Positions 9,708 through 56,566 of a stretch of DNA of 64,000 bases are shown here, in pieces. Position 1 is the stretch's first letter; every line of letters starts with the position of its first letter. This stretch comes from Candidatus Falkowbacteria bacterium. Lineage in GTDB: Bacteria; Patescibacteriota; Patescibacteriia; UBA11705. The notes beneath the pieces were generated by a model. The model ran no database searches. It was given only the letters and a program-made list of their open reading frames with translations, and had not been told where the DNA came from. Location: assembly GCA_003518055.1 (NCBI GenBank), contig DOZJ01000002.1:235097-299096 (forward strand), read 5' to 3'. The translations under genes were made by a program, and so were the position numbers.

Positions 9708-9845
9708 AATAAATAGTATACAGTCATCAATGATGCGGACACGCAGCTGCTGCCTATCCGCACGCTTTATAACTATATCGGCTTGAAAGTCTTTAGCCTA
9801 TCAAGTTTTTGTAACGTTTCGTAATTTTTTGTAATTTCGTAACCC

Positions 9846-20207: not shown

Positions 20208-20493
20208 TGGTCTTATAGTCGATTAACAATCGGCTTTTTTGATTAAAATAATTTCGTTAATGTAAATTTCAAGCAGTCCGTGTGTTAAATAATTTAAACA
20301 GCTACATCCAAGCCAATACTATTTTTGTAAAATTTGCAGCGTCCGGTACCGCATGTTGGGTGGGTATATTTGTAATGTTTGTATTGATATGTAAATTTGT
20401 ATCCCAAGATTTGTAAATTACAAAACCCGCCAAATCTTTGACGGGTTGTCGAAGCGGCGCGTGGCGCCGCGGAGTTGGGGATATCAGACAAGA

Positions 20494-24392: not shown

Positions 24393-25265
24393 TTGCTGCT
24401 GTACTCGCTGTACTCGCTTTACTTGCTTTACTCGCTTTACTCGCTTTACTTGCTTTACTCGCTTTACTCGCTTATAACTTATCTCGCTTATTCTATGATT
24501 GGTGTTTTTGACTCCGGTCTCGGCGGTCTGACCGTGCTCAAAGAATTGATCGCCCAAAATCCGACCGAAGATTATCTGTATCTCGGTGACACAGCTCATC
24601 TGCCATACGGCAATCGTTCGGCTGAAAATATTTATGAATTAACGCGAACAGCGGTAGGTTTTTTATTTAATAATGGCGCTGGCAAAGTTATTATCGCCTG
24701 CAACACCGCCTCGGCCAAAGCCTTACCTAGATTAGAAAAAAAATATTCGGAAAAAGTGATCGGTGTGATTGATCCGGTGGTTGAATATTTCGCGTCTTTG
24801 CCGGTGACTCGAATCGGGGTAATCGGTACGCGGGCGACGATTGGCTCGGATATTTATCATCAAGAAATAAAAAAAATGGCGCCGGCAAAAGAGATTTTTT
24901 CCATTGCAGCGCCGCTTCTGGTTCCGTTGGTCGAGGAAGATTTCAGCCATCGGCCGGAAACGGAGAGCATTTTACGGGAATATCTAAATGTGTTAAAATT
25001 GAACAAAGTTGAAGCCCTGATTTTGGGCTGCACTCATTATCCTATGCTGCTTGAAGTGGTCAAAAAGATTATGGGTGCGGAATGCCTGGTACCGAATCCC
25101 GCTGCCATTGTGGCTGAGGCCACGGCCAAAAGGTGGAACCTTGACGGTTCTCTCGGGCGTGAAGGCCGCCGCCGGTATCTCGTGACTGACTTGACTGCCA
25201 ATTTTGAAATCGCGGCTGAGCGGTTTTTGGGGCATAAAATTCATTTGGAGAAGATAAATTTATAA
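24393..25265 (+). CDS. murI: Glutamate racemase MurI
   Basis: GVFDSGLGGLTVL N-terminal motif, the active-site Cys regions (IIACNTAS, ILGCTHYP) and a length of about 257 aa from the true start MIGVFDSG at about 24495. The ORF-track N-terminal extension is translated repeat DNA. Confidence 0.9.
   Translation: MLLYSLYSLYLLYSLYSLYLLYSLYSLITYLAYSMIGVFDSGLGGLTVLKELIAQNPTEDYLYLGDTAHLPYGNRSAENIYELTRTAVGFLFNNGAGKVIIACNTASAKALPRLEKKYSEKVIGVIDPVVEYFASLPVTRIGVIGTRATIGSDIYHQEIKKMAPAKEIFSIAAPLLVPLVEEDFSHRPETESILREYLNVLKLNKVEALILGCTHYPMLLEVVKKIMGAECLVPNPAAIVAEATAKRWNLDGSLGREGRRRYLVTDLTANFEIAAERFLGHKIHLEKINL
24399..24470. repeat. Tandem repeat, 8 units of the 9-bp CT[GT]TACT[CT]G
   Basis: ctgtactcg ctgtactcg ctttacttg ctttactcg ctttactcg ctttacttg ctttactcg ctttactcg, immediately upstream of the murI start. 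Confidence 0.85.
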
Positions 25266-30477: not shown

Positions 30478-30675
30478 GTTTATTTGTGCGGGGAAGTGTT
30501 TTGCCAGATATCAACTGTGAGTGGTTTATTGGTGGCTAACGCTGGTTTTATGCTATAATTTAACCAGAAATAATGTAAATTATATTACTAATTTACTAAT
30601 ACTACAAAAATTACAGAAACTACACTTGATGTTTTTGTAACTATTTGTAATGTTTTGTAATTTTGTAACACCAAT

Positions 30676-31674: not shown

Positions 31675-34600
31675 TTGCTTATGGCCTATGAAGTCTCGGC
31701 TGTTTCAACGCTGGGAAATAATCACGAACACCGAGAAAATTCAACTGAAAAAATAACCAAGCCCGAGGCCGGTCTCGAGCGTGATATTTTGGCACTCAAC
31801 CAAAAAGTAGAAGCTGAGTTTCGTCGAGTCAAGCAAGCTTTGGATCGAGTTGTGGCCGGATCTTTGGTCGAGATAGCTCCCAGTCAGCCGCGAGCTGATG
31901 TTGTTTTTGATTCAATCAGGCAGGATCTGGAATCAATGAAACAATCAATGACCGATATCACCGCCATGAAATCACCGGATGTTTTGGCCGCTCAGTTGAC
32001 GGAGATCAATCAGAAGCTGGCGGAGTACAGTGGGTGGCAGGAACAGCAAGCTGAAGCTGCCGCAGCCTTGTCGTGGGAGTTGGAAAACCAACAAACAAAA
32101 ATTGCCGACCTTGAAGTAGCGTTGGAATCGGAGCGACAAAGAAATTTTTTTGTTAGACCGTTTAGAGAAAAAAACCGTCAGCGACTGGCTGCTGCTATCG
32201 ATGAGGCGAACAAAGTCAAAACCGCGTTATACGCCCGGCGTCAGGAAATCAAGCATCAAATTCATCAGCTGCAAGATTCATTGTATGAATTAGACAATCT
32301 TCGCCGTGATTTTGCGCCTCAGACATTAAAACTGAGTTTGGAGCAAGTAAAACAAAATTATTTGGAGCTGCAGTCCAAGCTGACGTCATCGGAAGCCAAA
32401 CAACAGATGAACCAATACTTAATTGAGAATGAAGTCCGGCCTGATCTCGATCGGGCTGTAGCTGATGGCGAAATTACCGAGGCCGCGGCATCAGAGTTTA
32501 TTCAACTTCTTTCCGCTGAGGTTGTTCAGGGGTTCACCAATTTGGTTTTTGGGATGTCACGTGAAGTCGGAGATGAAATTCAGCACCGTAATGAGCGGTT
32601 TCGCCGGCTGGAACAAAAAAAACCGACCTATATTTTTGAAACCTTACGGGCCAAAATCAGCGACCAATCAAGAGGGGTGGCTCCCGACGCTTATTTTAAT
32701 CCGATTATCGCTTATTTTTTGCGTAATTTATATCGCCGGCACACGTCGGAGCTCAGCTCCTCCGCCGCGGTTTTGAGCCAGACCGGTTGGATTACTTATG
32801 ATCATATTGTTGACGATGCAGACCGTGGTTTTGATTTTGAATTAGATAATCAGTCGGTTTTGCCGGCCGCGCGAAGTTTGGTCCAATCGGAGGGGCTTAT
32901 ACGGCTTAGATCGGTCGGACGCTTTTTGATCGATTCCGGTGTATTAACGCCGGCAGAATTCGAGGCGGAGCGCCAAAAAATGTATCGCGAGATTCTGGAT
33001 CACAATTTATCACCGGAGCCGAGCGATGATAAGTACGATGAAATTAATCGCGGAGCCAAAAAATTAGAAGAACTCAGTGATGTTCGACTGGTGCCCGAGC
33101 TGCTCACAAAAATTCAAGATCAAGCATATGATTCCAAAGACCCGATTCACGATCATTGCTTGGGCAAGTTGACTGATCTTTTTTCCTCCCTGCTTGGATC
33201 AGCCAAACCGGAAGAGGTATCAGCTGTTATGCAGAAATTGGAACCCCAGCAGAGAGAACTGATCTCGCTGATCATGGATAAAACGTCTTTTGCTCATACT
33301 TTTGGTAAAATCAGGAACGTTGTCAGGCATGGCGGCGAAGTTCTAGCCAAGGAAAAGCGTTTCCGGTCTTTGAAAGAACTTGGTTGGGAAACGCCGGATT
33401 TATTTGCTTTGTATGAAATGCGGTTGGCGCGTGGGCGCGATCTGAATTTACTGGTTAAAAGCGCGAATGATCTCGGTGAAAATCCCAAAGAAGTTATTAC
33501 TGCTCAGCTGGGAACAATCAAACGGAAATGGTTCAACCTGTCCGATGTTGATCGCCGCCAAGCAGTTGAGCTGCTGGCTCCGATCTTGGGGGAGAAACCA
33601 AAAGATTTATTTTTGACTTTTGTTCATGATCGGTTCAAACCGGCGGAGAGTCCGACCGACAAAGATCCTCTCGTCGCTTATTTGGCGACTATGCATGAGT
33701 ATGATGAATTGTTGGCGGTGATTGAGCTTTTTGATCAGGACAAAGAGAATTTTATTCTGCGGAATTTGTCCGTAATCGTTGAGCGAATGGTCTTGACCCA
33801 CGTGCGGCCGGAAACCCAAAAACGCGCCATTATCCGAATCGGGCAGGATCTCGGGTGGTCTGAAGCCCAAGCGATTGCCATCTGTTTGCCCCAGATTCTC
33901 CAATCTCAGTTGAAGTTTGAACGCAACACGGTCAAATCAAAGGGGGTTCAGGAATATCTGAAATTTTTTATCGCCGGTCAAGATTATGGCGAGCTGGTCG
34001 CCAAATTACTTGGCTTTCATCTGCAGGTTGAGGCGGAAAATTTAGATCGCGCCACTCGGATGGCCGCCGCTGTCGACACACCGGAGATGGTTGAGGCGAA
34101 AATAAAACAGGCCTCCGGTTTGGCCATGTTGGCTATCGACGGCGCTGAGCAATTTACCGGCCGGCTGGTGGCTGAGTATCGCGGCGGCCGTGAAGATGAT
34201 GAAGTTGTCTCGCGGTTAATGTCCCTCTATTCTTTTCTCCGTGATTTTGAAAGCCGGCAGAATCATCATGAATATACCACCAAACTGGAAGCTATCGTTG
34301 TCGGCGGCAAGATCAGCGGACTTCAATCAATGTATGAATCGGTCAGCGCGAATTTTCAACAGATGGTGAATGAAGCACCGCGGCTTTTCGCTGACGTGGC
34401 TGATCGGGAAATGTGGATTGAATTGGTTGGTCCCGACCGCATCAAGGAATTTCTTGATCGGCTGCCCAAGTCGTCGGATGAAAAACGCAACGCCCTTACT
34501 CACAATCAATATGATCGCACCTCAATTTTCCTGTCTTCCCTGATGAGCAATCTTAAATTTTCTCCTTTATTTGAAGGTGAAAGTGAAGTGGTTCTCGATC

Positions 34601-36150
34601 AGGACGATTTCTCCGTTATTTCCAGTTTTGTGGAAAAATTTGGGCTGTCCAATACCCCATTGTTATTTCGTTATTTTCGTAATTTGGTCCGACTAGAAAA
34701 ATCAGGCACGCCGCTGCCAGCGGAGCAGGTGGCCGAGGGCATAATTTCGCTGGAAGTCTTAGATCAGAAAATGAGAAAAATTAAATCGTCTTTGTTATCG
34801 TCCAAGCCGATTATGGACATTGATATAAATCAAATGACCGCAGTCGAATTGGAAATGTTCAGCTTCCTCACCGGCAAAAGCCGTCACCGCTTTGATAGTG
34901 GTCGGCCGAGCTTGGAGCAGATTATCCGTGATTGGCAGTCAAATCGTGAGGCCGGTTCGGTAGCTGAAAAGCCGGATGCTTACGGTGAATTTACGGAAAC
35001 CATTCCGCGAGTAAAAATTATATTTGATAAAGAAAAAGTGCGCTCCAGTTTTGAGATTATTCAACAAGATATTTTGGCAGCTATGAAAGATTCGGCTGAT
35101 ATATCATCGGTCACTCCGCGCGCTCAAGCGGTTCTCAATCAAAAAATCAGCGATCTGCGGGAGATTTTGGCGCGAAAACCGGATAACAAATTCATTGCCC
35201 AGCAGCTCAGCCACTATGAAATGATGGCCGGTCGAGTCAACTCGGCGGCGGATATTGATAGCTTAATCGAAGTTTTGGTTTTGGCTGAACGCGGCTTTGC
35301 TGCCAAAAGTGAACTCAGTTCGATTATCAGAGAACTTTTATTCCGAAAATTATTTACGGTTAATTTCTCCGGTGATGCCATCCGCCAGATGGCCGCGACT
35401 GTTGATGGCGATGTGACCGGAGTGGGTATTCTAAATGTAATTAATTTGGTTGACCGATTTGTCAAAGACCATGTATTGAATTTAGCTAAACATAACGAAG
35501 AAAATTATTGGAGTGCCGGTGCTTGGCGGGCAATCAATGACGCCAAAGACAATTCCAAACAGGTTGATGTTACAAAAATTTTCAAAACCGAACTGGACGT
35601 GCTCCGTGCCGAGGTCGGCAACTTTATTTTGGAGGATTCTGATAAGCCGGTTGAGGTCAAGATGATTCCGGATCGAGGTTTGGTGGGGGAGATGTCCGGT
35701 TATTTGGCTGATGTATGTTACACCAAGGAATACCCGCTGCTCACCGCCTATCCGAATATGGTGCCATATAAATTTGTGGCTGAAGACAAAGCATCAAAAG
35801 AGAGAAGTTTGGTTGGTTCAGTTTTGGTTTTTGAGTTGACGGCCAAGGATGGTGATAAGGTAATGCTGGTCCGCGGATTTGATGTTCCGAATGAAAGTGA
35901 TTTTGATATCGGAACGTTTATTGAAAAATTCTTAGATAATTTGGAACCGGTCGCCAGACAGCGCGGTATTAACAAAATTTTGGTTCCGGGCAGCAGCGGC
36001 GCCATCTCGAATTATGGGATGACCCTATCATACATTCAATCAAAATTTATCAATGACAAAAGTCCGGTTTCGCTCGATGGGTTTTTTAATTTTAATGGCT
36101 ATAACCTGACTGATAATTGCTATCTGGCGCGGACAATTGAGATTAAATAA
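31675..36150 (+). CDS. Giant protein A (1491 aa) of a three-member paralogous family, with a shared C-terminal domain
   Basis: No signal peptide. The N-terminal third is coiled-coil rich. The C-terminal about 230 aa align with giant B (IPDRGLVGEMSGYLADVCYT / GSVLVFE / ...RTIEIK versus IPDRGFAGELSGYYGEACYT / GSVLFIE / ...RTIK). The likely ATG is at 31681. Confidence 0.7.
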   Translation: MLMAYEVSAVSTLGNNHEHRENSTEKITKPEAGLERDILALNQKVEAEFRRVKQALDRVVAGSLVEIAPSQPRADVVFDSIRQDLESMKQSMTDITAMKSPDVLAAQLTEINQKLAEYSGWQEQQAEAAAALSWELENQQTKIADLEVALESERQRNFFVRPFREKNRQRLAAAIDEANKVKTALYARRQEIKHQIHQLQDSLYELDNLRRDFAPQTLKLSLEQVKQNYLELQSKLTSSEAKQQMNQYLIENEVRPDLDRAVADGEITEAAASEFIQLLSAEVVQGFTNLVFGMSREVGDEIQHRNERFRRLEQKKPTYIFETLRAKISDQSRGVAPDAYFNPIIAYFLRNLYRRHTSELSSSAAVLSQTGWITYDHIVDDADRGFDFELDNQSVLPAARSLVQSEGLIRLRSVGRFLIDSGVLTPAEFEAERQKMYREILDHNLSPEPSDDKYDEINRGAKKLEELSDVRLVPELLTKIQDQAYDSKDPIHDHCLGKLTDLFSSLLGSAKPEEVSAVMQKLEPQQRELISLIMDKTSFAHTFGKIRNVVRHGGEVLAKEKRFRSLKELGWETPDLFALYEMRLARGRDLNLLVKSANDLGENPKEVITAQLGTIKRKWFNLSDVDRRQAVELLAPILGEKPKDLFLTFVHDRFKPAESPTDKDPLVAYLATMHEYDELLAVIELFDQDKENFILRNLSVIVERMVLTHVRPETQKRAIIRIGQDLGWSEAQAIAICLPQILQSQLKFERNTVKSKGVQEYLKFFIAGQDYGELVAKLLGFHLQVEAENLDRATRMAAAVDTPEMVEAKIKQASGLAMLAIDGAEQFTGRLVAEYRGGREDDEVVSRLMSLYSFLRDFESRQNHHEYTTKLEAIVVGGKISGLQSMYESVSANFQQMVNEAPRLFADVADREMWIELVGPDRIKEFLDRLPKSSDEKRNALTHNQYDRTSIFLSSLMSNLKFSPLFEGESEVVLDQDDFSVISSFVEKFGLSNTPLLFRYFRNLVRLEKSGTPLPAEQVAEGIISLEVLDQKMRKIKSSLLSSKPIMDIDINQMTAVELEMFSFLTGKSRHRFDSGRPSLEQIIRDWQSNREAGSVAEKPDAYGEFTETIPRVKIIFDKEKVRSSFEIIQQDILAAMKDSADISSVTPRAQAVLNQKISDLREILARKPDNKFIAQQLSHYEMMAGRVNSAADIDSLIEVLVLAERGFAAKSELSSIIRELLFRKLFTVNFSGDAIRQMAATVDGDVTGVGILNVINLVDRFVKDHVLNLAKHNEENYWSAGAWRAINDAKDNSKQVDVTKIFKTELDVLRAEVGNFILEDSDKPVEVKMIPDRGLVGEMSGYLADVCYTKEYPLLTAYPNMVPYKFVAEDKASKERSLVGSVLVFELTAKDGDKVMLVRGFDVPNESDFDIGTFIEKFLDNLEPVARQRGINKILVPGSSGAISNYGMTLSYIQSKFINDKSPVSLDGFFNFNGYNLTDNCYLARTIEIK

Positions 36151-36153
36151 AAT

Positions 36154-36951
36154 ATGATTTTAATTTATTTGTTTATTATTTTATTCGGTTTGGCAATCGG
36201 GAGTTTTCTCAATGTGCTGATTTTCCGTTTGCCGGAGCCAGCGTCAAAGTGGATAAAATTTAAACGTTCAGTTTGTCGATTCTGCCGCAAGGTACTCACG
36301 CCACTGGAATTGATTCCGGTGTTTAGCTTCTTATCGCAGAAAGGCCGATGCCGGTCGTGCGATGAAAAGTTATCATGGCAATATCCGGCCGTGGAGCTGT
36401 CAACTGCGGTCATATTTTTGCTGCTGGCATTTATTCATCTCTCTTCTTTGTCCGATATTTCAGCCGAAAGCGTTGCCTTCCTAATCCGCGATATGTTCAT
36501 TGTATCGGTTCTGATTCTGGTTTTTGTTATCGATGTCAAGCATTTCTTGATCCTTAATAAAGTTATCTATCCGGCTTTGGTTGTGGTTGCTTTGTTCAAT
36601 ATTTATCTGTTGGATTTTAATCTAAAGAAAATACTGGGGATTGTAATCGGCGCCGTGATCGGCTTTTCCTTTTTTGCCTTCCAGTATTTTTTTTCCAAAG
36701 GCAAGTGGGTCGGCGGCGGCGATATGAAATTCGGCGCCTTGATCGGCTTGGCGCTCGGCTGGCAGGGGATGATCACCACCTTGGTTTTGGCTTACGTTGG
36801 CGGCGCCATATTCGCCGTGGCGTTGTTGATATCGGGCAAGGCCAAGTTCGGCGCCAAACTGCCAATGGCCGCGTTTCTGGCTCCGGCTGCTTTGGCGGTT
36901 TTGCTCTACGGCGAAAATATTTGGTCTTGGTACTTTAATTTATTTATTTGA
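36154..36951 (+). CDS. pilD: Prepilin peptidase (A24 family, type IV pilin leader peptidase/N-methyltransferase)
   Basis: N-terminal Cys-x-x-Cys ... Cys-x-x-Cys zinc motif (CRFCRKVL ... CRSCDEKL), multiple TM helices, and a catalytic Asp region GGGDMKFGALIG. Confidence 0.85.
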   Translation: MILIYLFIILFGLAIGSFLNVLIFRLPEPASKWIKFKRSVCRFCRKVLTPLELIPVFSFLSQKGRCRSCDEKLSWQYPAVELSTAVIFLLLAFIHLSSLSDISAESVAFLIRDMFIVSVLILVFVIDVKHFLILNKVIYPALVVVALFNIYLLDFNLKKILGIVIGAVIGFSFFAFQYFFSKGKWVGGGDMKFGALIGLALGWQGMITTLVLAYVGGAIFAVALLISGKAKFGAKLPMAAFLAPAALAVLLYGENIWSWYFNLFI

Positions 36952-36970
36952 GGCAAGCTGATATAAAGAA

Positions 36971-36998
36971 TACAGATATACGGATAATACAGATATAC
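36971..36998. repeat. Direct repeats (TACAGATATAC x2) forming the left arm of an inverted-repeat pair flanking the GxxExxY gene
   Basis: TACAGATATAC at 36971-36981 and 36988-36998. The reverse complement GTATATCTGTA lies at 37517-37527. Confidence 0.6.
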
Positions 36999-37054
36999 AG
37001 TTTAAAATGTTAATTCATCAGTAATATGTATAGTCTGGAACAGTAAATCATCAC

Positions 37055-37465
37055 ATGGATAACCAAACAATAATAAAAAAAGACAATGGGACGGCTTACA
37101 TCCAAGATCCATTATCTAAGATAGTTATTGGGATTTGTTACGAGATTTTCAATTCTATTGGTCCGGGGGTGCGCGAAAAATATTATGAAGACGCTGTAGA
37201 ACACAAATTCAAGAAACGGGGGGTGATTTATCAGAGGCAATTGAAAGTGGACATAAAACTTGACGGTGAAAAAATAGGTTTTCGTCGATTGGATTTTTTG
37301 GTGGAAAAACGTCTCGTTGTGGAATTGAAAATTGGTAATTATTTGTCTCAAGCTGAGTTCAATCAAGTAAAAGAGTATTTAAAAATAAATAATTTGAAAT
37401 TAGGTTTAATTATTCTATTTACCACTCATGGTGTTAGAGTCCGTCGGGTGGTGAATTTATCTTAG
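37055..37465 (+). CDS. GxxExxY protein (PD-(D/E)XK nuclease superfamily)
   Basis: Matches the GxxExxY family signature (GVREKYYEDAVEHKFKKRG) and the conserved later E-x-K-like region (RRLDFLVEKRLVVELK). 136 aa. Confidence 0.7.
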   Translation: MDNQTIIKKDNGTAYIQDPLSKIVIGICYEIFNSIGPGVREKYYEDAVEHKFKKRGVIYQRQLKVDIKLDGEKIGFRRLDFLVEKRLVVELKIGNYLSQAEFNQVKEYLKINNLKLGLIILFTTHGVRVRRVVNLS

Positions 37466-37516
37466 TACAGATGCAGGTAATATAGATATACCGTTTTGAA
37501 AATATTTATTTATCAG

Positions 37517-37527
37517 TATATCTGTAC
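37517..37527. repeat. Right inverted repeat (GTATATCTGTA) of the GxxExxY cassette
   Basis: Exact reverse complement of TACAGATATAC found twice on the left flank. A further direct AGATATAC lies at about 37484. Confidence 0.6.
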
Positions 37528-37548
37528 AATCTGTAACCGTAAAAGTTT

Positions 37549-38064
37549 ATGAAACTAAAATTTAAAAACAATCTGATCAATTACGGTTTTGTCACGCTAT
37601 TGATTCTAATTGTGGCGGCCATGGTGGTTGTCAATGTAAAAGATTATCAGTCGGTCCAACTGGTCAAGGCGGAAATGCAAAAGTATGGTGAGTCTCTGAC
37701 CGTAGCGCGGGTAAAAGCTTTGGCCGGAGAAAGATTCAAGGAGTTTGAGCAGATTCCATTCGCCTATGGCTTGTATTTCAACAACGATGAGCAATCTTTG
37801 GTTGTCTGCGCTGACATGAACGGCGATTTTGACTGTGTTTTGTCTGAATTCGTTCAAACTGAAAAGCTCTCAGATCAAATCAAAGTCAATGAGTTCCACA
37901 CCATCAATTTTTTGAAATACAAAACCGTTGACGGTGTGTGTCTGGACGACAACTGCGATCTTGGCGGTGAGTTATTGGTCGCCGAATTCGCGCGCAAGGA
38001 TAAACCCGAGATCATCAGCCAGATGTTTTACGACGCCGATAATAGTCGATTTGTGATCGAGTGA
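37549..38064 (+). CDS. Hypothetical membrane-anchored protein
   Basis: N-terminal TM helix (GFVTLLILIVAAMVVVNV). 171 aa. Confidence 0.45.
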   Translation: MKLKFKNNLINYGFVTLLILIVAAMVVVNVKDYQSVQLVKAEMQKYGESLTVARVKALAGERFKEFEQIPFAYGLYFNNDEQSLVVCADMNGDFDCVLSEFVQTEKLSDQIKVNEFHTINFLKYKTVDGVCLDDNCDLGGELLVAEFARKDKPEIISQMFYDADNSRFVIE

Positions 38065-38065
38065 T

Positions 38066-50974: not shown

Positions 50975-51056
50975 AACCAAAATTGTTATTTTCCCCTCTA
51001 ACCCCTAACCCCTAATCGCTAAACCCTATTCGCTAACCCCTCTTATCCCCCTCAGT

Positions 51057-53126: not shown

Positions 53127-53156
53127 TTCACTAAACCCTTAACGCTAACTAAACCT

Positions 53157-53453: not shown

Positions 53454-53670
53454 TCCTCAAATTTTTATCCTCATTATTCATCCAAAAACCGTATGGCTTC
53501 ATCCGGTTTTTGGTTTGATAAATTTAACCCGATAATATATAGTATTATTACTCAAATGAAATTGTGAAGCTTACTTTTCTCAATTCCCTTAATTCTCTCA
53601 ATTCACTTGATTCTCTCAATCCCGCCTCTCGCGAGAAGCGGGATCAATTCTCTTAATCAACTATTTAAAT

Positions 53671-56381: not shown

Positions 56382-56566
56382 GTTTCATATTTGCCTGAAT
56401 AACAATTCAGGTTTTTTGTTTCAAAAAAACTATGTTAAAATACTTCCAGTCTAAATCCCAGATTTTTTACGAAGCGAAGCATAAATCACCAATCACGAAG
56501 CAGTTGTCCCTAGTTCCTTGTCTCTAGTTCCCAGTTCCCAGTCTCTATTCACTAATCGCTCCCCCC

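What the first reader, a model, noticed from the sequence alone, without database searches (positions are those of the whole stretch)
36971..37527. GxxExxY (PD-(D/E)XK) gene bracketed by AGATATAC inverted and direct repeats: possible mobile cassette
TACAGATATAC occurs twice in tandem at 36971-36998, immediately upstream of the 136-aa GxxExxY gene. Its exact reverse complement GTATATCTGTA lies at 37517-37527, just downstream, with an extra direct AGATATAC at about 37484. An 11-bp inverted repeat flanking a single small nuclease-family gene of about 550 bp, located in a variable region between giant genes, looks like a minimal mobile or recombination cassette.
Basis: seen in the sequence. Interest (0 to 1): 0.5.

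Follow-up and report, generated by a model that had tools for sequence, protein, structure and literature searches.

The report
Nuclease gene cassette with repeat-array arms
A roughly 595-base, low-GC insertion carries one small nuclease gene between arrays of 8-9-base repeats, and relatives of this gene in many bacterial phyla sit between the same kind of inverted repeat arrays, often inside operons, which points to a widespread small selfish cassette that I could not find described.

Summary
TACAGATATAC and its reverse complement occur only around this gene in the 64 kb window. The true unit is an 8-9-nt TACNGAT(A) repeated four times upstream. A degenerate direct copy follows the stop codon, and an inverted array lies beyond it.

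The gene is an intact GxxExxY / PF13366 PD-(D/E)XK nuclease with a Cas4-like core fold. Two related genomes have the flanking genes 0-4 nt apart, so window 36953-37547 (32% GC against 46%) is an insertion.

All 24 other independent GxxExxY loci I inspected lie in unrelated contexts, in CPR, Bacteroidota, Chloroflexota, Proteobacteria, Spirochaetota and Fusobacteriota. Nearly all are bracketed by arrays of 7-10-nt units, usually inverted, that share a degenerate core YRCRRAK. All are co-directional with their neighbours, and many split operons.

Four-helix-bundle (23S-rRNA-IVS protein) genes show the same architecture with different units, even in the same operon.

My best reading is a selfish cassette whose arms are cognate sites for its own protein. 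The mechanism is inferred, not shown. The closest analogue is the 23S rRNA intervening sequence. Gene-less arrays of the same type in the window suggest a link to the unexplained intergenic tandem heptamer repeats of bacteria.

The parts
36953..37547 (.). Inserted segment (the cassette with short linkers), lying between the A24 prepilin-peptidase stop codon (36949-36951) and the start of the 171-aa gene (37549).
   Evidence: The alignment with empty sites L022 and L024 shows this stretch is absent there. GC is 32.3% against 45.8% for the window, in the lowest 0.6% of 595-nt windows.
36960..37003 (+). Left arm: a tandem array of 8-9-nt units (TACAGATA, TACGGATAA, TACAGATA, TACAGTTT at 36971-37003; TRF array 36960-37000).
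   Evidence: It matches the family-wide YRCRRAK core in the inward orientation.
37055..37465 (+). GxxExxY protein gene, 136 aa, a stand-alone PD-(D/E)XK nuclease.
37466..37497 (+). Right proximal arm: a degenerate direct copy of the left module (TACAGATGCAGGTAATATAGATATACCGTTTT), starting immediately after the stop codon.
   Evidence: family D1, 81%; local alignment score 35 against 36970-37008.
37512..37536 (-). Right distal arm: the inverted array (reverse complement TTACAGATTG, TACAGATA, TACTGAT).
   Evidence: (I1, I4).
37466..37541 (+). Local foldback hairpin formed by the right proximal and right distal arms.
   Evidence: RNA fold of 37460-37545: -20.1 kcal/mol, z = -4.26, 0 of 200 shuffles as stable. 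The same pairing appears in the fold of the whole cassette.

Best explanation
Window 36953-37547 is a small selfish gene cassette that entered this Falkowbacteria lineage between two tightly coupled genes of an operon. It consists of one stand-alone PD-(D/E)XK nuclease gene (GxxExxY family) and flanking arms built from tandem 8-9-nt units. The arms belong to the element, not to the host. The same architecture, purine-rich units with core YRCRRAK upstream on the coding strand and their complement downstream, accompanies GxxExxY genes across bacterial phyla.

Inferred mechanism. The arms are multi-site recognition arrays for the encoded nuclease, like the subterminal repeats of transposon ends. 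The nuclease makes breaks at such arrays. The unit is then copied or moved as a whole by host repair or recombination, with gene-less arrays or foldbacks serving as possible acceptor or relic sites. The cassette depends on read-through transcription from the host operon, which would explain its constant co-orientation.

Shown: the insertion, the low GC, co-travel of gene and arms, a unit core specific to the family, an intact catalytic site, and co-orientation.

Inferred: binding of the protein to the arms, cleavage, and the route of mobility.
For: Insertion: empty sites in L022 and L024, and GC of 32% against 46%.

Co-travel of gene and arms: local alignment score of the upstream flank against the reverse complement of the downstream flank has median 33 in 17 GxxExxY loci, against median 14 and maximum 26 in 75 control genes, Mann-Whitney p = 3.8e-7. 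Arms are 16-42 nt long and about 70-100% identical, the shorter ones 93-100%.

Family-specific unit: YRCRRAK occurs 95 times inward against 16 outward in 21 loci, while control genes average 0.49. Four loci fetched after the motif was defined give 6, 5, 6 and 4.

Same-operon contrast: in L042 the GxxExxY cassette uses CACAAAG / CACGGAG units, while the four-helix-bundle cassette 2 kb away uses TTTTGAA / TTCAAAA and has no YRCRRAK at all. The unit therefore follows the encoded protein, not the host.

Protein: catalytic residues are invariant and the model has a Cas4-like core. The family has about 36,000 clusters at 50% identity; the 150 best-scoring hits listed are small proteins matching with one or two copies of the domain.

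Context: co-directional with neighbours at every locus and often splitting operons, for example fabD|fabG, hisD|hisC, purQ|purH. No sense promoter was predicted upstream in the window.

Gene-less arrays of the same unit type occur in the window, 3 strict clusters against 0.39 expected.
Against: A PD-(D/E)XK hydrolase cannot by itself carry out strand transfer.

No target-site duplication is visible, and the junction cannot be resolved to the base because the empty-site genomes are only about 65-72% identical in the downstream protein.

There is only one copy in 64 kb. No two near-identical copies at different loci were found, so recent transposition is not demonstrated.

Four-helix-bundle cassettes share the architecture without encoding any enzyme.

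The arrangement of the arms is not uniform. I found X-gene-rcX, X-gene-X'-rcX, X-rcX-gene-rcX and rcX-X-gene-rcX-X.

An 8-9-bp spacing is unusual for double-stranded-DNA binding sites.

The YRCRRAK regex was derived post hoc, apart from the four hold-out loci.
Confidence: 0.5

Rival explanations
1. IVS-like RNA element. The arms matter at the RNA level. The upstream and downstream arrays, or the local foldbacks, form double-stranded RNA stems that RNase III cuts. This would excise or insulate the cassette transcript from the operon mRNA, as with 23S rRNA intervening sequences. The encoded protein would not recognise the arms. This reading is compatible with mobility by an unknown route.
For: 23S rRNA IVS elements are about 430 nt and low in GC. 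They carry a small S23p / four-helix-bundle ORF and a 28-bp terminal inverted-repeat stem cut by RNase III (PMC4990558). PF05635 genes outside rRNA show the same array-flanked architecture. All cassettes are co-directional with their host operons. Among transition mismatches between arms, 23 are G.U-compatible on the sense strand against 9 on the antisense strand. The right-end foldback is significantly stable (z = -4.26).
Against: Plain pairing does not explain why the arms are tandem arrays, nor why a degenerate core (YRCRRAK) is kept across phyla for one protein family and differs for the other within the same operon. In the window the 3' inverted arm pairs locally, not with the 5' arm. The G.U bias could reflect C-to-T mutation bias on the non-template strand. 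There is no Rfam match.
Confidence: 0.25
2. The arms form a non-autonomous, REPIN/MITE-like foldback element mobilised in trans by a separate enzyme, for example the REP-associated tyrosine transposase encoded 600 bp downstream. GxxExxY and four-helix-bundle genes would be passenger cargo.
For: A RAYT gene (NF047646, 101 bits) lies at 38066-38662. A weak Y1_Tnp hit lies 2.7 kb from the L043 cassette. Gene-less foldbacks of the same unit type exist, at 30585-30669. Two unrelated protein families share the architecture.
Against: The RAYT is not flanked by the arrays and directly abuts its neighbours. No RAYT lies within about 3-10 kb of the other loci. The motif is not dispersed through the window. 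The unit type follows the cargo family within one genome, which is unexpected for a single trans-acting mobiliser.
Confidence: 0.1
3. The arrays are ordinary intergenic tandem-repeat regulatory elements of the STRR or TAACTGA type, acting on translation or transcription. The gene arrived by unspecific horizontal transfer, and the arms have nothing to do with mobility.
For: Tandem heptamers just upstream of start codons are widespread and unexplained (PMC4679880; PMC6344855). The window has several such arrays next to housekeeping genes. The foldback upstream of GAPDH keeps its position in a relative, downstream of a TATAAT box.
Against: This does not explain near-perfect inverted symmetry around one specific gene family in 20+ unrelated contexts. 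It also does not explain why the arrays are absent from the empty sites.
Confidence: 0.1
4. A chance similarity in AT-rich intergenic DNA, or an assembly artefact.
For: The region is AT-rich.
Against: 0 of 100 shuffles reach the observed counts. Six independent assemblies give identical sequence. The pattern recurs across the family.
Confidence: 0.01

Closest known systems
23S rRNA intervening sequences (IVS) carrying an S23p / four-helix-bundle ORF (Leptospira, Coxiella)
   Same: A small element of about 0.4-0.6 kb with one small ORF of unknown role, terminal inverted repeats, GC below the host's, sporadic distribution that implies horizontal spread, and an unknown mobility mechanism (PMC4990558). 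PF05635 genes outside rRNA (L022, L031, L034, L042) have the same array-flanked layout as this cassette.
   Different: This one lies between protein-coding genes, not in a 23S rRNA helix. Its ORF is a PD-(D/E)XK nuclease, not a four-helix bundle. Its arms are tandem arrays of short units. RNase III processing is untested.
Intergenic tandem heptamer repeats (cyanobacterial STRR; TAACTGA repeats of Beggiatoaceae, Cyanobacteria and Bacteroidetes; TTTTGAA in Nostoc)
   Same: Short units in tandem, intergenic, ending a few bases before start codons, found in the same phyla, with unknown function (PMC4679880, PMC6344855, bioRxiv 10.1101/2022.06.06.494920). The four-helix-bundle cassette in L042 uses TTTTGAA.
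   Different: Those repeats were described as direct arrays upstream of assorted genes. None of the papers I could search links them to inverted pairs bracketing a specific small gene. The period in the window is 8-9 nt, not 7.
REP / REPIN elements and their RAYT transposases
   Same: Short intergenic repeats that form hairpins or foldbacks, and a RAYT gene nearby in the window.
   Different: The arms are not individual palindromes with a conserved 5' tetranucleotide. They do not flank the RAYT, they are not dispersed through the window, and RAYT is absent from the other loci.
Free-standing homing endonuclease genes, including PD-(D/E)XK types such as I-Ssp6803I and I-Bth0305I
   Different: Homing endonuclease genes have no inverted repeat arms and stay at one homologous site. 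Here the contexts are unrelated and the arms are constant.
Foldback-type and subterminal-repeat DNA transposons (Galileo / Foldback, Ac, CACTA) and bacterial MITEs
   Same: Inverted arms made of multiple short tandem motifs that serve as multi-site protein-binding ends. Gene-less foldback derivatives also occur.
   Different: No DDE, HUH, serine or tyrosine recombinase is encoded, no target-site duplication is seen, and the element is far smaller.

Membership tests
GxxExxY protein / PF13366 PDDEXK_3 (TIGR04256) | Profile score above the curated cut-offs | tested here: met
   PF13366 97.5 bits (cut-off 22); TIGR04256 95.2 bits (cut-off 35).
GxxExxY protein / PF13366 PDDEXK_3 (TIGR04256) | GxxExxY motif together with the PD-(D/E)XK catalytic residues | tested here: met
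   G38, E41, Y44, D80, E90 and K92 are invariant in 59 sequences.
GxxExxY protein / PF13366 PDDEXK_3 (TIGR04256) | Restriction-endonuclease-like alpha/beta core fold | tested here: met
GxxExxY protein / PF13366 PDDEXK_3 (TIGR04256) | Nuclease activity | not testable with these tools
   No solved structure or assay was found. Function is listed as 'Unknown' in PMC3424549.
23S rRNA intervening sequence element | Located in a 23S (or 16S) rRNA helix | tested here: not met
   It lies between the A24 peptidase gene and a 171-aa gene. No rRNA or Rfam hit.
23S rRNA intervening sequence element | ORF of the S23p / PF05635 family | tested here: not met
   The ORF is PF13366. PF05635 cassettes with the same layout exist elsewhere.
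23S rRNA intervening sequence element | Terminal inverted repeats able to form a stem | tested here: inconclusive
   A 17-nt, 94% inverted repeat is present. In the predicted fold, however, the 3' arm pairs with the local direct copy rather than with the 5' arm.
23S rRNA intervening sequence element | Excision by RNase III | not testable with these tools
   Needs RNA mapping.
REP / REPIN with RAYT | RAYT gene flanked by its REP sequences, with REPs dispersed in many copies | tested here: not met
   The RAYT at 38066-38662 abuts its neighbours and has no arrays. The motif is confined to the cassette. RAYT is absent near the other cassettes.
IS / MITE-type transposon | Terminal inverted repeats | tested here: met
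IS / MITE-type transposon | Target-site duplication | tested here: inconclusive
   None is evident at the junctions, but the empty-site genomes are too diverged to place the junction to the base.
IS / MITE-type transposon | Encoded DDE, HUH, serine or tyrosine transposase, or multiple copies mobilised in trans | tested here: not met
   The only ORF is a PD-(D/E)XK hydrolase. There is a single copy in 64 kb.
Free-standing homing endonuclease gene | Nuclease gene present or absent at a conserved site between homologous flanks | tested here: met
   Filled site compared with empty sites.
Free-standing homing endonuclease gene | Cleavage of the empty allele, and confinement to one homologous target site | tested here: not met
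   Homologues sit in unrelated contexts: gatC, Mur ligase, fab, his, pur and ars operons. Cleavage itself cannot be tested here.
Integron gene cassette | A single attC site at the 3' end, in an array next to intI | tested here: not met
   The arms are on both sides and there is no integrase nearby.
Intergenic tandem heptamer repeats (STRR / TAACTGA type) | Tandem copies of a short unit (7 nt), intergenic, close to start codons | tested here: inconclusive
   Tandem and intergenic, yes. The period is 8-9 nt here and 7-10 nt in other cassettes. The left arm ends 51 nt before the ATG.

The most novel reading that the evidence does not exclude
GxxExxY and four-helix-bundle ('23S rRNA IVS protein') genes are the protein-coding cores of a phylum-spanning class of minimal selfish cassettes that I could not find described. 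Their ends are inverted arrays of tandem 7-10-nt units, each cognate to its own protein. Their relics or non-autonomous derivatives, solo arrays and foldbacks, would be the origin of at least part of the enigmatic intergenic tandem heptamer repeats of bacteria (STRR, TAACTGA, TTTTGAA). 23S rRNA intervening sequences would then be the special case of such cassettes that landed in rRNA.
Probability: 0.3. Interest if true: 0.85.

Novelty: new variant of a known kind. Interest (0 to 1): 0.62.

Why it matters
PF13366 / TIGR04256 is a very large family with no assigned function, about 36,000 clusters at 50% identity. [quoted passage not shown]

If the nuclease gene and the arrays form one unit, as 25 loci here indicate, both problems become testable together. 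The protein becomes the obvious candidate reader of the arrays, and the arrays become the obvious candidate substrate of the protein.

The work also extends the 30-year-old puzzle of 23S rRNA intervening sequences beyond rRNA. It shows that small selfish cassettes sit neatly inside essential operons (fab, his, pur) in cultured, genetically tractable bacteria such as Bacteroides and Sphingomonas, where experiments are feasible.

Tried and rejected
- Rfam scan of 36500-38200 at E<=1: no match.
- PDB sequence search with the family profile: nothing meaningful.
- PADLOC: only weak Csn2 / Cas4b similarities, no defence system.
- Phage collection (tblastn) and two IMG/VR scans with GxxExxY and four-helix-bundle alignments: no hits, so there is no evidence of a viral carrier.
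- Alignment A1 was too diverse for locus finding. The genome and metagenome scans with A2 returned only 7 and 6 loci.
- No cyanobacterial GxxExxY was found on plasmids. The contrast between protein family and host therefore rests on L042 and on comparisons across phyla.
- RAYT linkage was considered and rejected as a general feature.
- Sigma-70 scan: no sense promoter upstream of the gene. Promoter-like hits are not above the shuffle expectation.
- A shared-6-mer statistic proved too insensitive in AT-rich flanks and was replaced by local alignment against control genes.
- Long-range 5'/3' pairing in the window's transcript was not recovered in the minimum-free-energy fold.
- Literature searches for GxxExxY, PF13366, TIGR04256 and heptamer repeats found no description of this architecture. 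Subscription-only literature was not searchable.

Full report
**1. The observation**

The sequence is as described, with small corrections. TACAGATATAC is exact at 36971-36981 and 36988-36998 on the + strand and at 37516-37526 on the - strand. TATAGATATAC lies at 37481-37491. All four AGATATAC copies in the 64 kb window are here, against 0.78 expected, and no shuffle reaches four.

The 11-mer is really two overlapping copies of an 8-9-nt unit. The upstream array reads TACAGATA-TACGGATAA-TACAGATA-TACAGTTT, and TRF reports period 8 and 5.1 copies over 36960-37000. The whole ~33-nt module recurs as a degenerate direct copy that begins immediately after the stop codon (37466-37497). An inverted array follows at 37512-37536. 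These two right-hand arms form a local hairpin (z = -4.26). Six assemblies from other samples are identical over 36900-37600.

**2. The gene**

ORF 37055-37465 (136 aa) is a clear member of PF13366 / TIGR04256, the 'GxxExxY protein' family. G38, E41, Y44, D80, E90, K92 and Q104 are invariant across 59 homologues.

The family is very large, about 36,000 clusters at 50% identity. The 150 best-scoring hits listed are small proteins matching with one or two copies of the domain. Its function is listed as unknown (PMC3424549).

The source organism is a Candidatus Falkowbacteria (CPR) bacterium from groundwater.

**3. It is an insertion**

I searched with the downstream 171-aa protein and found two relatives, at 64% and 72% identity. 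In their contigs (L022, L024) the A24 prepilin-peptidase gene and this downstream gene are 0-4 nt apart.

The alignment shows that window 36953-37547 has no counterpart between ...ATTTGAG and TATGAAA.... The inserted stretch has 32.3% GC against 45.8% for the window, which places it in the lowest 0.6% of windows of that size.

Deletion in the relatives is less parsimonious. It would have to be precise in both, restore a 2-4-nt spacer, and leave no arm behind.

No target-site duplication can be seen. At this divergence the junction cannot be placed to the base.

**4. The arms travel with the gene, in every phylum sampled**

The two closest homologues (56-58% identity) lie next to gatC and next to a Mur ligase. 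Both are flanked by inverted arrays of TACWGA-type units, and L008 has a perfect 16-nt inverted repeat.

More loci came from several sources:
- the species-representative genomes;
- metagenomes;
- annotated replicons of cultured bacteria, namely Bacteroides, Bernardetia, Sphingomonas, Treponema, Prevotella and a fusobacterium;
- long contigs.

All of them show repeat arms directly abutting the ORF. The unit differs from locus to locus:
- TACAAAT, TACGAAT, GTACGGAT and TACAAGAT in CPR;
- CACAGAGGA in Bacteroides;
- CACAGAGA in Bernardetia;
- CGCAAAG in an Anaerolineaceae his operon;
- CACGCGAAGG in the Sphingomonas fab operon.

A local alignment of the upstream flank against the reverse complement of the downstream flank scores a median of 33 for 17 GxxExxY genes. 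For 75 control genes from the same loci the median is 14 and the maximum 26 (p = 3.8e-7). Arms are 16-42 nt long and about 70-100% identical, the shorter ones 93-100%.

Despite the divergence the units share a core, Y-R-C-R-R-A-K. It occurs 95 times in the inward orientation and 16 times outward in 21 loci, against 0.49 per control gene. I defined that motif after seeing those loci. Four loci fetched afterwards gave 6, 5, 6 and 4.

**5. Context**

At every locus the cassette is co-directional with its upstream neighbour, and almost always with the downstream neighbour as well. The gaps are tiny, and it often sits inside an operon. Examples are fabD|fabG, hisD|hisC, purQ|purH, an ars operon and atuA|atuA-ferredoxin.

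In the non-CPR cassettes a Shine-Dalgarno-like sequence lies between the upstream arm and the ATG. No sense promoter is predicted upstream of the gene in the window. The cassettes therefore appear to rely on host read-through transcription.

**6. A second protein family has the same architecture**

In L022 a PF05635 ('23S rRNA IVS protein', four-helix bundle) gene sits between GAPDH and the same peptidase gene, and is flanked by inverted ~8-nt arrays.

Four-helix-bundle genes on cyanobacterial plasmids are flanked by inverted heptamer arrays:
- Nostoc: GCAGGGA upstream, CCCCTGC downstream;
- Leptolyngbya: GGAGA-type upstream, TCTCC-type downstream.

In L042 both families occur in one pur operon. 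The GxxExxY gene is flanked by CACAAAG / CACGGAG units. The four-helix-bundle gene lies between four TGTTGAA / TTTTGAA units and four TTCAAAA units, with no YRCRRAK match. The unit type therefore follows the encoded protein rather than the host. This is my main reason for inferring that each protein reads its own arrays.

**7. Variation and relics**

The arrangement of the arms is not fixed. Writing X for the arm and rcX for its reverse complement, I found:
- X-gene-rcX, the commonest;
- X-gene-X'-rcX (the window and L044);
- X-rcX-gene-rcX (L042);
- a 75-nt palindromic foldback on both sides (L041);
- a tandem-fusion gene (L039).

The window also contains gene-less arrays of the same unit type. 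One is a foldback of TTACAAAA units ending 8 nt before the GAPDH start (30585-30669). It is conserved in position in L022 and lies downstream of a TATAAT box. Other arrays lie at 9806-9842, about 20355-20420 and 49378-49400. Strict clusters number 3 against 0.39 expected.

Arrays with other units precede further genes.

**8. Mechanism**

The following are shown: the insertion, co-travel of gene and arms, a family-specific unit core, an intact active site, and co-orientation.

My preferred inference, at about 0.5, is that the arms are multi-site recognition arrays for the encoded nuclease, comparable to the subterminal repeats of foldback and Ac-type transposons. The unit would then spread through nuclease-induced breaks and host repair, with gene-less foldbacks as possible acceptors or relics.

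Several points weigh against this. A hydrolase cannot catalyse strand transfer. No duplication or recent second copy was found. The four-helix-bundle cassettes encode no enzyme.

The main rival, at about 0.25 and not exclusive of the first, is an IVS-like RNA role. In that model the arms form stems cut by RNase III, as in Coxiella (PMC4990558). Co-orientation supports it, as does a weak excess of sense-strand G.U-compatible mismatches, 23 against 9. It does not explain the tandem structure or the family-specific core.

Mobilisation in trans by the nearby RAYT (38066-38662) is unlikely as a general rule, because RAYT is absent from the other loci and is not flanked by arrays.

**9. Comparison with what is known**

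The closest known systems are:
- 23S rRNA intervening sequences;
- REPIN/RAYT elements;
- free-standing homing endonuclease genes;
- foldback transposons.

The cassette fails at least one defining feature of each (see the membership table). I found no paper linking GxxExxY genes to repeat arms, although subscription literature could not be searched.

I rate it a new variant of a known kind, an IVS-like selfish cassette. There is roughly a 0.3 chance that it represents a broader undescribed class, one that would also account for part of the bacterial heptamer-repeat phenomenon.

Noticed in passing
window 38066-38662 (+): A REP-associated tyrosine transposase (RAYT; NF047646 at 101 bits, PF01797) lies directly after the 171-aa gene with a 1-nt gap and has no flanking repeats. 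The relative L022 lacks it at this position but has a weak RAYT-like remnant just upstream of ligA (L022 12053-12238).
   Followed up: partly
window 30585-30669; L022 3560-3660: A gene-less foldback: TTACTAAT / CTACAAAA / TTACAGAA units, a 7-10-nt loop, then four TTTTGTAA-type units ending 8 nt before the GAPDH start codon. It lies downstream of a TATAAT box, so it is probably in the 5' UTR. RNA fold z = -3.5. A diverged version sits at the same place in the related genome.
   Followed up: partly
window 9806-9842, ~20355-20420, 49378-49400: More gene-less arrays of the same YRCRRA unit type (TTACGAAA / TTACAAAA, TACAAAT, TACAAAT / CACAAAT). They lie next to a LemA gene, upstream of ORF 20475, and after ORF 48956-49372. 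They may be relic or solo arms.
   Followed up: partly
window 24397-24473, 50998-51041, 53127-53150, 53570-53620, 56504-56554: Tandem arrays with other units: GCTTTACTC x8.4, CTAACCC x6, TCTCAATTC x4.8, and CCCAGTT / CTCTAGTT. Most end 10-50 nt before start codons of ordinary genes (a PKD-domain protein, QueH, a UvrD helicase). This resembles the heptamer-repeat phenomenon described in Beggiatoaceae and Cyanobacteria.
   Followed up: no
L022 4736-5176; L042 6095-6457; L031, L034: PF05635 '23S rRNA IVS protein' / four-helix-bundle genes outside rRNA are also bracketed by inverted tandem-unit arrays. In L042 one sits in the same pur operon as a GxxExxY cassette, with perfect TTTTGAA / TTCAAAA heptamer arms.
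   Followed up: partly
window 31675-36150 and 40995-44642 (+): Two giant ORFs (1491 and 1215 aa) have no Pfam domain but share a similar C-terminal region (...IPDRG(L/F).GE(M/L)SGY...CYT...). They look like paralogues of unknown function. Gene order around them differs from the relative L022.
   Followed up: no
P0011-P0019, P0126-P0139; L039 10001-10804: Many database proteins of 260-295 aa are two GxxExxY domains in tandem. They look like fusions of adjacent cassettes. In L039 the upstream region holds a complete foldback and the downstream region a direct copy of one arm.
   Followed up: partly
L009 2986-3162: A truncated GxxExxY pseudogene (in-frame stop, lost 5' part) that still has TACGGAT / TACAGAA units upstream, on a contig labelled Gammaproteobacteria. 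It is closely similar to the CPR-type copy in L007, which suggests either cassette decay or mis-binning.
   Followed up: no
L029 1203-1941: In a fusobacterial plasmid the GxxExxY gene is flanked by three direct copies of a ~55-nt element ending in ...TTAATCCGTGTACC, rather than by simple inverted arrays.
   Followed up: no
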